From Balanoglossus misakiensis (taxonomy: Eukaryota; Animalia; Hemichordata): a stretch of 64,000 nt of DNA. The stretch covers positions 12,401,834 to 12,465,833 of the forward strand of contig CM082579.2 of the NCBI GenBank assembly GCA_040954595.2. The letters are read 5' to 3'. This document shows, piece by piece, positions 28,801 through 43,800 of the stretch. Each line of letters starts with the position of its first letter. Within the stretch, counting starts at the first letter, position 1. Below the pieces are notes generated by a model. The model was not told where the DNA came from. It was given only the letters and a program-made list of their open reading frames with translations, and did no database searches. Both the position numbers and the translations under genes were made by a program.

Positions 28801-31800
28801 AATCGTTGTCATCATTACAGTCTGATCGAATGGAATATTCATGATGTGTGTTATTCAAGCGCATGTCAACGTTTTCTAAAATAAAAAGTGAGACAGTGAA
28901 ATTCTTAGGATTAGCTTTCTGAAAATACTATAGTTTGTGACGGAAGGGGGAAGTGTATAAAATACTCGTGTTTCAGGTAACGGACTTTGCTCGTGTATTT
29001 TTAGAGTATGGTAAAATCAGTGTGCTCACCCTTGCTTTGGCATCCTACGCCGTCAAAAACTACAGCACCTTCGATAACATCATCGTTTGCCATAACGGTG
29101 ACACCATCTGAGCTGGCAGTCACACTTCCGGAAGCAGAGGTTGCTCTCACGGTAACAAAATATTTCTAGGTTTGAAAAAAAAAACTTTGGCTAAGCATCA
29201 AGTGATCAAACTTTAGCAGAACGAATAAAAGATTTTGCCTTAGAACGGAAAGCAAGTAGTGCCTCACTGAATCTGAGCACCACCCATTAACATAACTTGT
29301 CCTATAAATCACGGAACCTGGTCACAGGTGACAGACAATTTCAGTGTTCACAAGCACGTGTAAACGGTAAATATATATGCATTCTGGCACTCGTTGAAAT
29401 TACACAAAGACAAAAAACGCTTTGATTGACACATAGTAAATATGATCACCCTGCAGATCCCAATCCAGGAGATATGTTGCTATGGCAATACAGGATGGTT
29501 GCTCGTTTTCGTTGCACGTTGCATTATCAAACTCATCAAAAGGTGTAAAGTCTAACAGCTGGGTACCGTATGGCGTGAAACCTGTTAAAGTAAAATTGCA
29601 CAATGTTTTGCTTGGATAAGTTATTATAAACAATATTGTATGCTGATCCGTGCTCCTTTAAAAAATGATTCGTTCGAATAAATGTGTAATTTACTTTGTC
29701 GGAAGTTTTTTGGACTATTTTCATGTTCTTATTAATTATAGTAGCTTACCGACTGCAACTTTGTAGTCTGACAGTGGTTCTGGGTCATCTTTCTCGAAGA
29801 AATCATCATCCTGCCATCTTGCCAGAAGAAACTCTTGACCGCCATACTTTTCATGTTCGACTAAAATTGTTCCAATAAATTCTGGAGGAGTCACCTCAAC
29901 AATAATGGGACCAACGACCTAGAGAACACATAAATGCAACATTTGATATCATTCGATTCCATTTTACCCAAGGTAACAGAATTCACCAACTCTTGCAGAC
30001 CATATTTCAAACAGCATTGACAAAATCTAATTTAATTTTATGAAGAATCCGTGAAACAATTTTCAAAACACATACTACTATGGTCTATAGTAGTAATATT
30101 TTTTTTTCAAACGAAAACCTGAATCACATTCCAATGAATCAGAATTGAACACTTAAAATTAAGATGAAGGCTTTGAACCAACTGACATAAAAACATTATT
30201 TATTTCCATATTTCGGCCGATGGTTAATGCTGGGCCATAAGGAAGATAATGCATTTGCCAGCATCTGCAGAAACAGAATGCCTAACCCCAACAACCACTC
30301 CCACCTACCAAGACTAAGATCAATGCTTTAAACGTCTGTACCGTAAGGTCATTTCACTTTCCGGAAACACCCGCTCTGCTGCAAATGTGTGTAATCGCGG
30401 TATTTCAACTTGGCTTCATGAATTTGCAGGCGCAAATATTATCGCACATACCTTTGTTGTTGTTATCTGTGCTCTGTTAATTGACTGGATAACAACATGA
30501 AATACCACACCTTCACCAAGATTCGGGTTATATGTAAGAAATCTTGGATGAGAGTGCGTTGACGTCTTAGGTAGGATATCGGTGTCTAACCCTTGATTTG
30601 TGCTACTTAGACCAACCATATAGTCGTAAATTCCACTTTCATTGTCTGTACCTTTCCACGAAACAGCCAGCTGAAAATTTAATTGCATTGATATATTTCA
30701 ATTAATGAATGGTACATATGGTGTTGTGTACATTCTCCACGTGGTTGAAATGACTATGTACAAGTGTAGCATATTCCTTGATACCATGTGTGTGGTCAAC
30801 TATAACACGCTTATACAAATACTTTGTTGAGAATGGCCCCTTTCCTTTGTTTGCACGGACGGTGATTTAAAAAAATCAACACCTCGTGTTCCTTAATTAG
30901 AAACTTCCCGATGGAAATTTACCTAAAATTTCACCTAGAGGAAATACCTCTAACGGAGTCAAAGTCTTGACGTACATACCATATTTTCATTTACAAGGTA
31001 GTCATAACCAGGATATGGTCCAGCGCTAATGCATTCCTTATCACCGCAACTTTGATTGATAGGCGTACCATCAGTATTTCTCAACATGGGCCATGATGTC
31101 ACATCCTCAACAATGCGAGCAGTATTCCTTGAATCAAACGAACGATTACAAATAACTCGGATATGAGTGTCATCAAAACTGACTGTGTTGCATATACGTC
31201 ATTCGCAATAACTTTCCTTAAATGATATCATATTACTGTACATACCTATACACAGTGAGCAATACACGCCAAATTCCAGTGTTCTCGGTGCCAAATGTAT
31301 AATAATTGTGCTTATATGATCACGGGCGTCATGGAACGATAAAATTTATGGATATTAATAAACTTAGCATAAAAGCGACGTCCTCAACGAACACAGAATA
31401 GAATATTTCGTGGGTTTGTTTGGTGTGGACGAGAACTGCAATAAAGCTGGGTCATCAGTGTTATAACTTTATGTGCAAAACCACACCGTACGCGTAGCTC
31501 TTACACTAGGCACCGTACGTTATGTGCGATCTCGTCTTGAACAGTAAAGTCGATGTGTACGCATGCGTGCGCGCCCGCGACTGATCTACCCTGTGTATAA
31601 GTGAGGTACAAAAAATACAGGGTACGACACGCATTTTCAGCCCACCGCCATTTGGCAACTATTACGAAGAGAATCGCTACCAAATCAGAGTATGCGTTTT
31701 AGATAAGATAAAAACTTATATTTGGCGTTTCATTTTTCAAAAGTCAGTCGAACATTCAAGAAATTATTGATCGAAAAGTGTCACTTGTCCTGGGGACGTG

Positions 31801-40800: not shown

Positions 40801-43800
40801 ATTATAAAAAAAATTACAAGAAATACTGCAAAACGGGTAATTTTCGCGACAGGAATTTTTCGGAATATCAAAACAGGCAACTGTTACGCGAGGATTAATT
40901 TTCGTGTTCTCGTATTTCACTGCATCGTTATATCCGGGGGAAAAAATATTTTACGCGACTTTTTATTTTCACGTTGTTTTGGCTCTCGCGTATTTAGCGA
41001 ATATTGCTCGCGAAAATAACCCATTTTACAGTATGTAACGCCTATCAGGTAGCATATGTTTGATTATGACATTAACAATGCGTGCAATGGGCTGCCCTAA
41101 AATTTCGCCGAGATTATGCTGATAAACACCAGCAACAGTCGCGTGACATGAATTATGATGGGTACACCATTAGTTACATGTTGTCAAGTTCAATGGGCGG
41201 TGCTGCGAGCTAGGTACCGCAACACGAAAATAAAAGGTCTATTCTCCATGTCTCACTCACCTTGCCACGACCAGTGATTCCCAAAACTTTCCTCGACTTT
41301 TCCTTCTGTCCGAGACTCTTTCCATCAGGAGAGCTCCGTAAATCTTTACTCTTACTCATTTTGGTATCTGTCCAGCGTCCCCGGAGCTCGCGATCACACA
41401 GACCCAATGTTTACGTCTGACGTCATGATCACCTGATTTTGACACGGGCTCACGAGACGTAGTACGTTACGTTGCCGATATTGCATATTAATTAGGTAAC
41501 TTTGAACATCAGGGGCGGCTAAACAAGGGTGGAGCAATCTGGAGCAATCATTCTAGACGGAAGTGTGACAACTTATCTACAACATATTTGAGTATTGAGA
41601 CTTGCGGTGTTAAAATAAATTAGAAAACCGCGTGTTGTTAACATCTCATCACAGTCGTACCACGAATTCGGCCGATCTGAAAAAGAGGGGTAGCGGGCAA
41701 ACAGCTCTAAAATTTCGTGATGGTTGTGTCCCCAACTACTTGAAAATGAAAGTTGGTAGGAAATTCAAAATAAAAAGCGGGGAATCAGAAAAAAAATCGA
41801 TATTTTTATTACTCATGAATTATTCATATTATGCAAATAAGTCTATTCTTTCAGCCAATCGCGGCGTGCACAACCCCCCCTGTAACATACACTGTATACG
41901 AGCGCGTCTGTCCTGGCTAGCAACGGAGTCGTACTGCCGCGCGCGCTGGGCCGGGCGCGTGCAGTTGTAGATTGCGCCATCACTTCCGCGTTCGTCTGCC
42001 ACGCGTTCTGGGCCGGGCGCGTGCAGTTGTAGATTGCGCCATCACTTCCGCGTTCGTCTGCCACGCGTGCTGGGCCGGGCGCGTGCAGTTGTAGATTCTT
42101 CGATATCAAATGACGTCAGAGACGCTCAGGCGGCAGTTACGTTCGCATTCCAATTTCCACATGTTCCAGATGACGGGCAACTTCAGCAACGTGGACTTAC
42201 GTGGTGCAGACAAAGACTGTGCAGATGAAATGCAATGAGGTTGATGAGGCACCATACCTGATACATGTTACGTGTTCGGTGGTTCTAAAGTAAAAACATA
42301 CTCGGAAAAACTTTTACTGGATGCCGAAATATTGCTTGCCCGTCATCTGGAAATGACAACGCCGTGGGACACATGGCCAGATCACGTGATTGATAGTAAA
42401 GAATTGAGCCATCACTTCGGCGTTCGTTCGCATATTTTGCAAGTCCAGCTGTATCACGTCATGCGTTTTGTCAGTGGAAAGGGGGGTATTCTCTTGATGA
42501 AAACGTGACGGAGATGCCGGTAGGCCGTTCGTGAGTGCAGTTCTCGTTCACACCAAAACAAAACAAAAAAACTCGAAAATGTTGTGTTCGTTTACGCTAA
42601 GTTATCAATACACTTTATTGTTCCATGACGCCCGTGATATGATGTCTTATCATACATGCAACGTCTGTATTTGGCACTTTGTATTGTTCTCGCCCCGAAG
42701 ATATTTTACGGTATTACACTGAGTGCGATATTTTACGTTATCGACCAAAATCCGTGTAATAACCCTTAAATATTACTGTACATAGCGACTTGGTAATGAA
42801 TCATTGTACATATGACCCACTCTATATGATATCACCTTTTTGTCAACGGGCACAGCTCTCTTTAGAAATATTGCGTATGTAACTGTAAATGTTGTTCATT
42901 TATCCTTGTATTAGTACTATAGGAGCGTCAATAAGTATAGAGGGAAGCATTTAGACATGTATAATACCTGCACGCATAAGAAGGATTTATCACTTCACAT
43001 CGAAAACCGTTTTCATCAATCAGCCAGACTGTTTGGTTGTCATCTTGAACAGCTCCTCCATGCGTTCGAAGATTTGCAATCTCGATCTCCTCAAGTTGAG
43101 GTTCTGTGACGTCAATGGTTATGCCATCTGAACAAACGGGGTCCGATGGATCAAGGGCTTGGTTGTAGGCTATGACTGTGCAGTGGTAGGTTCCCGGGTA
43201 TGGAGCAGTCCAACTTGCGTGTGTGGTGGTAGCGTTTATAATCTGTGAAAAACAAAAGAAACGATGATAAAACCAAAAGTTCATAATTTCGTTAAAATCA
43301 GGAATTGGCCAATCTGATTCTATACACAAGCATTGTTTATATGTTATATGCATTTTTGTATATCTTAAATCGGTCTTACCGCAGTTAACTGCGAATAAAC
43401 CTATGCTTTCTGTTTCAGACGTTCTTGCAATTACTATTGTATGGTAACATCATTCAAAACCGTGCCTCAAATGTTCTGATATACAGGTATATATTGCTGT
43501 TGCTGTTGTTGGTCGTATAAAAACTGAAGTTACAAACTTATAAAAAGTTGTAAAACCCGAAATGAATAAAGTCATAAATCAGACACTGTTTACGTTTAAG
43601 GAACGTAACAATAATACTTACAGGATGTGTTGTTGGGAAGGTAATGCTGCTGATATTATCAAAGCATTCTTCTCCAAAGACATACACATACATCAATATG
43701 CCACTCTCCCTGTCAAAGAAACCTTCCCACCATGCATGAATGGTCAGATCTTGCTGATAGTCTATGTCAGGTTGACCTTGAAATCCTTCATGAACGTAAC

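What the first reader, a model, noticed from the sequence alone, without database searches (positions are those of the whole stretch)
31230..42784. Candidate new two-gene transposon: P-like transposase paired with a HIRAN-domain gene
Seen: an 11.5-kb block fills one intron of the host gene, has inverted subterminal motifs and a flanking direct repeat, and holds two convergent genes, a spliced ~1000-aa DDE transposase and a HIRAN-like protein. Established: canonical P elements encode a single THAP-transposase and excise leaving long (17-nt) 3' single-stranded overhangs; HIRAN domains (HLTF/Rad5) bind free 3'-OH ssDNA ends. Inference: the HIRAN protein is a dedicated partner that caps or hands off 3' ends during transposition or donor-site repair. 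I do not know of a described P-superfamily group with this layout, but I cannot search to confirm novelty.
Basis: partly seen in the sequence, partly recalled or inferred. Interest (0 to 1): 0.9.

Follow-up and report, generated by a model that had tools for sequence, protein, structure and literature searches.

The report
P-type transposon with HIRAN partner gene
This is a broken copy of a cut-and-paste jumping gene of the P-element kind whose relatives in many marine animals carry, tail to tail with the transposase, a second conserved gene for a protein predicted to fold like the DNA-end-gripping HIRAN domain, which likely helps handle the cut DNA ends.

Summary
The block is nested. An inner 9,658-bp element (32225-41882; CAG-G-rich inverted ends, 8-bp target duplication) holds both genes. 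It sits in a 1.65-kb non-coding repeat (31321-42636; 7-bp duplication). The 15-bp repeat is older intron sequence. Sequencing contigs show an allele without the block. A full-length relative of the transposase is predicted to fold like Drosophila P transposase (Z 28.2, next 11.6), with a Myb-like domain in place of THAP. The window's copy lacks one conserved exon. The partner is predicted to be HIRAN-fold (Z 9.3 to HLTF) and keeps the 3'-OH-binding aspartate. A HIRAN gene lies convergently downstream in 33 of 80 related loci, and in 29 of 34 with at least 1 kb downstream. Four sit between shared ends with exact 9-bp duplications. The two proteins co-diverge (Mantel r 0.57). I found no description in print; Repbase and Dfam were not searchable. 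The scan noted HIRAN-like partners before, in pogo/mariner elements of other genomes, not in P-type ones. End binding is untested.

The parts
31314..31320 (.). left 7-bp target duplication of the outer element (ATATGAT)
   Evidence: identical to 42637-42643
31321..32216 (.). left arm of the outer non-coding element; begins with the inverted end CACGGGCGTCATGGAAC (17 bp exact, about 120 bp at 68%)
   Evidence: 8, 5 and 1 contigs of runs X1, X2, X3 start at 31321 with unlike flanks
32217..32224 (.). left 8-bp target duplication of the inner element (TAACATAC)
   Evidence: identical to 41883-41890
32225..41882 (.). inner two-gene P-type transposon, 9,658 bp
   Evidence: homologous elements L001, L015, L016, L017 have the same kind of ends
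32225..32250 (+). left inverted end of the inner element: CA, 15 G, TTGTGCACG
32368..32652 (+). tentative first exon of the partner gene (95 aa, ATG to GT donor, in phase with exon 2); not detectably homologous to the family's N-terminal domain
   Evidence: for the model; negative for homology
33005..33580 (+). main exon of the partner gene: acidic linker and HIRAN-fold domain (33191-33577)
34193..41359 (-). P-type DDE transposase gene, 13 exons (41359-41261, 40798-40648, 40307-39874, 39670-39509, 39222-39136, 38199-37908, 37763-37275, 36995-36852, 36538-36311, 35945-35764, 35472-35373, 34996-34817, 34682-34193); Myb-like domain in exons 2-3; likely catalytic D at 38136, D at 36984, DxxH near 35784, E in DDVE at 34561-34550
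   Evidence: fold of relative P0010
35473..35763 (-). 291-bp intron where a conserved exon of about 28-30 aa is missing; flanking exons out of phase, so this copy is likely dead
41865..41882 (-). right inverted end of the inner element: CA, 7 G, TTGTGCACG
   Evidence: X1 record 7 ends here with 39 unlike letters beyond
41883..41890 (.). right 8-bp target duplication of the inner element
41891..42636 (.). right arm of the outer non-coding element, with three 62-bp tandem units (41934-42119) and the right inverted end
42637..42643 (.). right 7-bp target duplication of the outer element

Best explanation
The inner element is a broken copy of a two-gene cut-and-paste transposon whose transposase is predicted to have the P-element fold and whose convergent second gene encodes a predicted HIRAN-fold protein that likely binds the free 3' DNA ends made when the element is cut out. 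Shown: inverted CAG-G-rich ends, 8-9 bp target duplications, many insertion sites, a conserved tail-to-tail gene pair. Predicted from models: RNase H core with a P-type insertion domain, a Myb-like DNA-binding domain in place of THAP, a HIRAN barrel with the aspartate that reads the 3'-OH in HLTF. Inferred: the Myb-like domain finds the ends, the transposase cuts with a stagger as P does, and the partner caps the 3' tails on the element or on the broken donor site, shielding them from trimming or end joining and so favouring reinsertion or gap repair from the sister copy. The window's copy jumped into a short non-coding P-like repeat inside a host intron and later lost one exon (or lost it before the jump).
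For: Mobility: 8-bp duplication in the window and exact 9-bp duplications, all different, at L001, L015, L016, L017; an allele without the block (joint 31320 to 42770, runs X1 and X2); a contig ending at the inner right end with another flank (X1 record 7); near-identical transposases under 8 groups of Dysidea avara accessions on at least 5 long contigs. P-type: Foldseek 6p5a E 5.8e-6; VIA Z 28.2, rmsd 2.8, 329 aligned, next RAG1 11.6 and Hermes 10.6; Atlas nearest clusters PF21787/PF21788; D778, H781, D865, D954, E957 invariant where covered, V827 in 17 and S835 in 15 of 19 rows, spaced like P's D444, D528, E531, V401, S409 (PMC7776569). HIRAN: 94 of 150 family members match PF08797 at E 0.01; model pLDDT 97; Z 9.3, rmsd 2.7, 100 aligned to HLTF; D94 counterpart D in 93% (PMC5773155). 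Linkage: 33 of 80 loci, 29 of 34 with 1 kb or more downstream, always opposite strand and downstream, none in 105 kb upstream; gap 55-2,239 bp, median 232; Mantel r 0.57 on 20 pairs under 70% transposase identity, 0 of 5,000 permutations.
Against: No binding, cleavage or expression data. The HLTF Y93 counterpart is F or Y in only 47% of the family (I in the window's copy) and Y72 has no clear counterpart. The family's most conserved surface (F-K-C-I-G, Q, W-x-x-Y, G-x-W) differs from HLTF and may serve another ligand. P's F443, N447 and K400 are not kept, so GTP use is open; the residue mapping rests on spacing, not on a residue-level alignment. Five of 34 loci with enough downstream DNA show no HIRAN hit (L004, L008, L035, L057, L078); L057 has a retrotransposon right after the transposase and L035 a partner broken at the start of the domain, the other three are only presumed too short. 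The 80 loci are the best 80 of 170 and are not independent; shared host lineage inflates the Mantel test. The folded transposase is a sponge relative (30-37% identical), not the window's own. The window's first partner exon shows no homology to the family's N-terminal domain.
Confidence: 0.55

Rival explanations
1. The partner is a required subunit of the transposase, as ORF1 is in PIF/Harbinger elements, and works mainly by protein contact; the HIRAN fold is a scaffold.
For: Strict pairing and co-divergence; a second conserved N-terminal domain of no known family in many members; incomplete DNA-stacking residues; precedent in PIF/Harbinger (PMC10288884, passages).
Against: The transposase has its own Myb-like domain, the job ORF1 does in Harbinger; single-protein P transposase suffices in Drosophila (PMC7776569); the N-x-x-D loop of the 3'-end pocket is the most conserved part.
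Confidence: 0.2
2. The partner acts on host replication or repair rather than on the element's own ends: it mimics or competes with HLTF/Rad5 at stalled forks, to time or target insertion or to bias repair towards copying the element back.
For: HIRAN's known substrate is the nascent 3' end at stalled forks (PMC5773155, PMC4666394); P insertions favour origin regions (PMC7776569); three partner clusters and locus L036 have an EXO1/XPG-like nuclease next to the partner.
Against: No data on localisation or targets; the five target duplications seen share no obvious motif.
Confidence: 0.2
3. The HIRAN gene is a captured passenger or both genes are host genes, with no role in transposition.
For: A few HIRAN-family proteins occur in other fusions (XPG in P0119, P0176; QRICH1-like in P0113); the reverse test (HIRAN genes without a transposase) could not be run.
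Against: Fixed position and orientation across 20 lineages with transposases down to 34% and partners down to 21% identity; shared inverted ends and target duplications around both genes; 444 clusters at 50% identity; allele without the block.
Confidence: 0.05

Closest known systems
P superfamily of DNA transposons: Drosophila P element, 1360/Hoppel, Galileo, THAP9 (PMC7776569, PMC3698922)
   Same: Predicted transposase fold (Z 28.2 to 6p5a), D-D-E triad with a helical insertion domain, CA...TG termini, target duplications of 8 and 9 bp (8-9 bp is also reported for the D. buzzatii P/BuT5 pair), spliced gene.
   Different: Myb-like domain instead of THAP; about 1,040-1,100 aa with a long helical insert after the first D; short G-rich inverted ends of 16-19 bp; a second, convergent gene. 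Sequence similarity is at or below Pfam's cut-off (1 of the proteins scanned passes PF21787) and no PDB sequence match was found.
HIRAN domain of HLTF/Rad5 and stand-alone bacterial HIRAN proteins (PF08797; PDB 4xzg, 4s0n, 3k2y)
   Same: Predicted six-stranded barrel (Z 9.3 to HLTF, 11.2 to 3k2y); P-x-N-x-x-D-x-x-A-I loop and G-Y/H motif; counterpart of D94.
   Different: Separate small protein (about 190-330 aa) with its own N-terminal domain and acidic linker, inside a transposon; Y72 not kept, Y93 half kept; no helicase or RING.
Two-protein or accessory-bearing DDE elements: PIF/Harbinger (ORF1 + transposase, PMC10288884) and Kolobok lineages (KolX, DEDDh, PD-D/ExK, His-Me, RecQ; PMC9587614)
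   Same: A conserved second protein rides with the transposase.
   Different: Different transposase family and target duplication; the accessory here is HIRAN-fold, which PMC9587614 does not mention (0 occurrences in the main text).
pogo/mariner elements with a convergent HIRAN-like gene
   Same: Same layout idea: DDE transposase plus convergent HIRAN-like gene.
   Different: Tc1/mariner superfamily, Cys/His-rich or protease-fused partner; no sequence look-alike was returned for this family.

Membership tests
P superfamily | RNase H-fold DDE transposase most like P transposase | tested here: met
   Model of relative P0010: Foldseek E 5.8e-6; VIA Z 28.2, rmsd 2.8, 329 aligned versus 11.6 for RAG1; window protein 30% and 37% identical to P0010 over its two halves
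P superfamily | Terminal inverted repeats beginning CA, with 7-9 bp target duplication | tested here: met
   Window inner element CAG..CTG with 8 bp; L001, L015, L016, L017 with exact 9 bp; L075 9 bp with one mismatch; TSD ranges from PMC3698922
P superfamily | Helical insertion domain with GTP-binding residues (K385, K400, V401, S409, F443, D444, N447, D528) | tested here: inconclusive
   By spacing, V827, S835, D865 and D954 of P0010 match V401, S409, D444, D528; K400, F443, N447 are not kept (PMC7776569). No residue-level alignment to 6p5a was available
P superfamily (animal members) | N-terminal THAP zinc domain | tested here: not met
   No THAP by Pfam or by a C2CH pattern in 3 of 3 full-length relatives; a Myb-like domain is found instead in 18 loci and the window; Z 8.1 to the Rap1 Myb domain
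P superfamily | Single element-encoded protein | tested here: not met
   Second gene inside the inverted ends in the window and in L001, L015, L016, L017, L072, L075
P superfamily | 17-nt staggered cleavage and GTP requirement | not testable with these tools
   Needs biochemistry
HIRAN domain (PF08797) | Six-stranded barrel fold of HLTF HIRAN | tested here: met
   Model pLDDT 97; Z 9.3, rmsd 2.7, 100 aligned to 4xzg; 94 of 150 members match Pfam at E 0.01, best 1e-11; window protein alone is below the cut-off
HIRAN domain (HLTF type) | 3'-end pocket: D94 reads the 3'-OH, Y72 and Y93 stack the last two bases | tested here: inconclusive
   D94 counterpart D 93%, N 7%; Y93 counterpart F/Y 47%; no conserved aromatic at the Y72 place (PMC5773155)
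HIRAN domain (HLTF type) | Binds free 3' ends of single-stranded DNA | not testable with these tools
   Needs a binding assay
PIF/Harbinger or Kolobok two-gene elements | Their own short target duplications (3 bp; TTAA, recalled) and transposase families | tested here: not met
   Duplications are 8-9 bp; nearest families are P-type

The most novel reading that the evidence does not exclude
These elements define an undescribed, old branch of P-type transposons that brings its own DNA-end-handling kit: a HIRAN protein that caps the 3' tails made by excision and, in one sub-lineage, an EXO1-like 5'-3' nuclease beside it, together steering repair of the donor break towards copying the element back. 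HIRAN would then be a portable accessory recruited independently by several DDE superfamilies.
Probability: 0.25. Interest if true: 0.85.

Novelty: new variant of a known kind. Interest (0 to 1): 0.7.

Why it matters
P elements are the textbook one-protein transposons, and how their unusual 3' tails are protected and how the donor break is repaired is left to host factors. A widespread P-type branch that swaps THAP for Myb and keeps a HIRAN-fold partner over a divergence down to 34% transposase identity suggests that some elements supply that step themselves. Young multi-copy families exist in sponges, so the role of the partner can be tested directly with and without it. It would also give HIRAN domains, known from fork repair, a role on the parasite's side.

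Tried and rejected
One 11.3-kb element with an internal-deletion derivative (my first reading): replaced by the nested reading once homologous termini were seen. No whole genome is held, so copies could not be counted in the assembly. No RNA holder listed; this says nothing on expression. First HIRAN search by shared words found nothing; the HMMER search found 444 clusters. Viral contigs: 80 pattern matches, none a relative of the transposase. Reverse linkage test failed three ways: the HIRAN alignment gave no usable pattern, the loci's records are not held, and none of 20 HIRAN clusters looked up carried accessions to compare with transposase accessions. Prokaryote genomes gave only weak matches (34 loci, E 2e-5 to 1e-3), not examined further. 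Sequence searches of PDB with the transposase found no P transposase. The window's first partner exon did not match the family's N-terminal domain (hhalign probability 0.1; 217 of 275 scored shuffles as good). An iterated HIRAN profile found no hit in the negative loci. No complex prediction was run: no intact cognate pair was available as unbroken sequence. Summed contig depth was used only qualitatively. Literature: searches found no paper on a HIRAN-bearing eukaryotic transposon (listings only); one search was uninformative because 'hiran' as a word start probably matched names; three wanted papers were not held.
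Full report
1. What is in the sequence. The region 31128-42967 is one intron of a large minus-strand host gene; the exons on either side join in frame. Two genes face each other in it, their stop codons 612 bp apart. The minus-strand gene has 13 exons with GT-AG borders, 41359-34193, and gives 756 + 255 aa. The plus-strand gene has a 191-codon main exon, 33005-33580, with an acidic stretch and a C-terminal domain that matches Pfam HIRAN weakly (E 2.8e-4, 21.1 bits against a cut-off of 24.7). 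A 95-codon first exon (32368-32652) is possible by ATG, donor and phase, but it does not match the N-terminal domain of relatives, so it is tentative. The closest named protein is from Ptychodera flava (93% over the last exon), so the host is probably an acorn worm or kin; no genome is held.

2. The ends. Contigs from three runs of one sample show a joint from 31320 to 42770 with GTC between (depth 110 in X1, 250 in X2; one 385-nt X2 contig spans both sides), so an allele exists that lacks the block yet covers both places of the 15-mer (the left copy differs there at several letters). Eight, five and one contigs of X1, X2 and X3 begin at 31321 with unlike flanks (agreement 0.5-0.55 in X1 and X2). 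The sequence there starts CACGGGCGTCATGGAAC, its inverse ends at 42636, and both are flanked by ATATGAT. The empty allele has one ATATGAT followed by GTC, as the window's right flank has, but it also lacks the next 123 bp (42647-42769), a separate indel that I did not resolve. Related loci then showed that the coding element has other ends: CAGGGGGGGTAGGAC with exact, different 9-bp duplications at L001, L015, L016 and L017, and a similar end with one mismatch at L075. The window has the matching pair at 32225 (CA, 15 G, TTGTGCACG) and 41882 (CA, 7 G, TTGTGCACG) with an exact 8-bp duplication TAACATAC. An X1 contig runs from 41041 to 41882 and continues with 39 unlike letters (record 7), so the inner element also sits elsewhere in that sample. 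A joint from 32222 to 41885 (X1 only, side 29 letters, CAGT between) suggests outer copies without the inner element; it is weak and its extra letters are unexplained. The outer element is 1,650 bp, has no open frame over 113 codons and is covered far more deeply than the genes (qualitative only). So the block is a 9,658-bp two-gene element nested in a short non-coding one.

3. The transposase. Relatives occur in sponges (Dysidea, Halichondria), cnidarians (Dendronephthya, Exaiptasia), Mytilus, Branchiostoma and Ptychodera. In Dysidea one cluster has 25 members, with full-length copies under 8 groups of accessions on at least 5 long contigs (15 of 25 listed), as expected of a young family. I folded the Dysidea protein P0010 with a 19-row alignment (mean pLDDT 69, core 80-97). 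Foldseek ranks the Drosophila P transposase first (E 5.8e-6; RAG1 next at 1.3e-2). VIA-align over 48,161 chains gives Z 28.2, rmsd 2.8, 329 aligned, against 11.6 for RAG1, 10.6 for Hermes and 10.2 for Transib. The Atlas's nearest clusters carry the P-type Pfam families PF21787 and PF21788. One relative passes the PF21787 cut-off, others fall just under. D623 (9 D, 2 N in 11 covered rows), D778, H781, D865, D954 and E957 are conserved; D401 at the end of the first strand is the likely first catalytic residue. By spacing, V827, S835, D865 and D954 match four of P's eight GTP-contacting residues listed in PMC7776569; K400, F443 and N447 do not match, so GTP use is open. There is no THAP domain; residues 71-150 match the Rap1 Myb domain (Z 8.1, rmsd 2.1, 70 aligned), and this domain recurs in 18 loci and in the window's exon 2 (weak Pfam Myb scores). 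The window's copy lacks the exon between the DxxH motif and GITDD: the best local score for the P. flava version anywhere in the element is 27 of a possible 154, and the neighbouring exons are out of phase. The window holds no N. The copy is therefore probably dead.

4. The partner. A search of 1.84 billion cluster representatives found 444 relatives (165 at E 1e-10), mostly small proteins with the domain at the C-terminus. Of the first 150 aligned sequences, 94 match Pfam HIRAN at E 0.01, and their profile finds HLTF HIRAN in PDB (E 0.0045). The model of the window's domain has pLDDT 97 and aligns to HLTF HIRAN at Z 9.3, rmsd 2.7, 100 residues, and to the bacterial HIRAN protein 3k2y at Z 11.2 (Foldseek agrees, with TM about 0.45). 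In HLTF, D94 reads the 3'-OH and Y72 and Y93 pinch the last two bases (PMC5773155, PMC4666394). The D94 counterpart is D in 93% and the preceding N in 99%; the Y93 counterpart is F or Y in 47% (I in the window); Y72 has no conserved counterpart. Longer members share an N-terminal domain of about 100 aa of no known family.

5. Linkage. One scan of metagenome contigs with the transposase alignment gave 170 relatives; the best 80 loci were kept. A HIRAN profile built, independent of these loci, hits 33 of 80, in every case on the opposite strand and downstream; 29 of 34 loci with 1 kb or more downstream, 19 of 22 with 2 kb or more; none in 105 kb upstream. The gap is 55-2,239 bp, median 232. Of the five misses, L057 has a retrotransposon directly after the transposase, L035 has a partner-like frame that breaks at the start of the domain, and L004, L008 and L078 are presumed too short or likewise broken. 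For 29 pairs with enough cover (28 loci and the window; 5 HIRAN-positive loci dropped for short cover), identities of the two proteins correlate (Mantel r 0.68); after keeping one per 70% transposase identity, 20 pairs give r 0.57, 0 of 5,000 permutations. Shared host lineage adds to this, and the trees agree only in part. The reverse question, whether HIRAN-family genes occur without this transposase, could not be tested; three clusters carry an EXO1/XPG-like nuclease in front of the partner, and L036 has such a gene just upstream of it.

6. How it most likely works. Shown: a mobile unit with inverted ends, 8-9 bp duplications and a fixed gene pair. Predicted: P-type catalytic core, Myb-like end recognition, HIRAN fold. 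Inferred: cleavage with 3' tails as in P (17 nt there; PMC7776569), and binding of those tails by the partner, on the element or at the donor break, which would protect them and favour reinsertion or gap repair (0.55). Rivals: a Harbinger-like subunit (0.2), a factor acting at host forks (0.2), a passenger (0.05).

7. Known and new. It works like a P element and belongs with the P superfamily by fold, termini and duplication, but fails two features of described animal members: THAP and a single gene. Searches of the paper library (listings and abstract starts only) found no HIRAN-bearing eukaryotic transposon. Papers seen: PMC7776569 (section 5 in full and passages), PMC5773155, PMC4666394, PMC3698922, PMC9587614, PMC10288884, PMC5751038, PMC10027918 (passages by term), PMC5718144 (term search, no HIRAN). 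No supplements were read; family lists in the supplements of PMC9587614, and Repbase or Dfam entries, could hold this family. The P-Fungi group and the Kolobok TTAA duplication are recalled, not checked. Earlier notes of this scan report HIRAN-like partners in pogo and mariner elements of other genomes; I did not test them, and no look-alike of this family was returned. I put the chance that this P-type two-gene branch is undescribed at about 0.7. Verdict: real, a new variant of a known kind, interest 0.7.

Noticed in passing
L036:10574-11359 (minus strand); proteins P0119, P0175, P0176: An EXO1/XPG-like nuclease lies just upstream of the partner in L036, on the same strand, and is fused to the partner in three protein clusters: a possible sub-lineage with a 5'-3' nuclease. 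Whether it lies inside the inverted ends is unknown (contig ends).
   Followed up: partly
window 31321-32216 and 41891-42636: The outer element is itself a multi-copy non-coding repeat with CACGG inverted ends and a 7-bp duplication, the size made by Galileo and 1360; its mobiliser is unknown.
   Followed up: partly
window 32222 to 41885 (run X1): A contig joins the two outer arms with six letters of each duplication copy and CAGT between, which could be an excision footprint of the inner element or a variant of the outer family; one contig, 29-letter side.
   Followed up: no
window 38406-39062: Head-to-tail dimer of a 337-bp palindromic repeat inside a transposase intron, extremely deeply covered; ends in CTTAA before ATAT, as does the 123-bp segment 42647-42769 that the empty allele lacks.
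   Followed up: no
window 35069-35174 and 40820-41035: Two further short hairpin-type repeats of high depth inside transposase introns.
   Followed up: no
window 31244-31316 and 54585-54672: The flank into which the outer element inserted matches another place in the window at 72%, and 31265-31301 is deeply covered: the target was itself an old repeat, three layers in all.
   Followed up: partly
window 32227-32241; L072:9459: The G run of the left inverted end is lengthened (15 G against 7 at the right end) in the window and in L072.
   Followed up: no
L057:14068-16901; L017:14276-15221: A BEL/Pao-like retrotransposon follows the transposase in L057; in L017 the partner gene is split by an insertion of about 0.9 kb.
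   Followed up: no
P0113: A member of the HIRAN family with a weak QRICH1-domain match at its N-terminus (E 1.3e-4), which may point to another mobile context.
   Followed up: no
P0001 (XP_070562220.1): The P. flava model starts in another frame of exon 9 and skips the DxxH exon, so that copy is probably broken or mis-annotated too.
   Followed up: no
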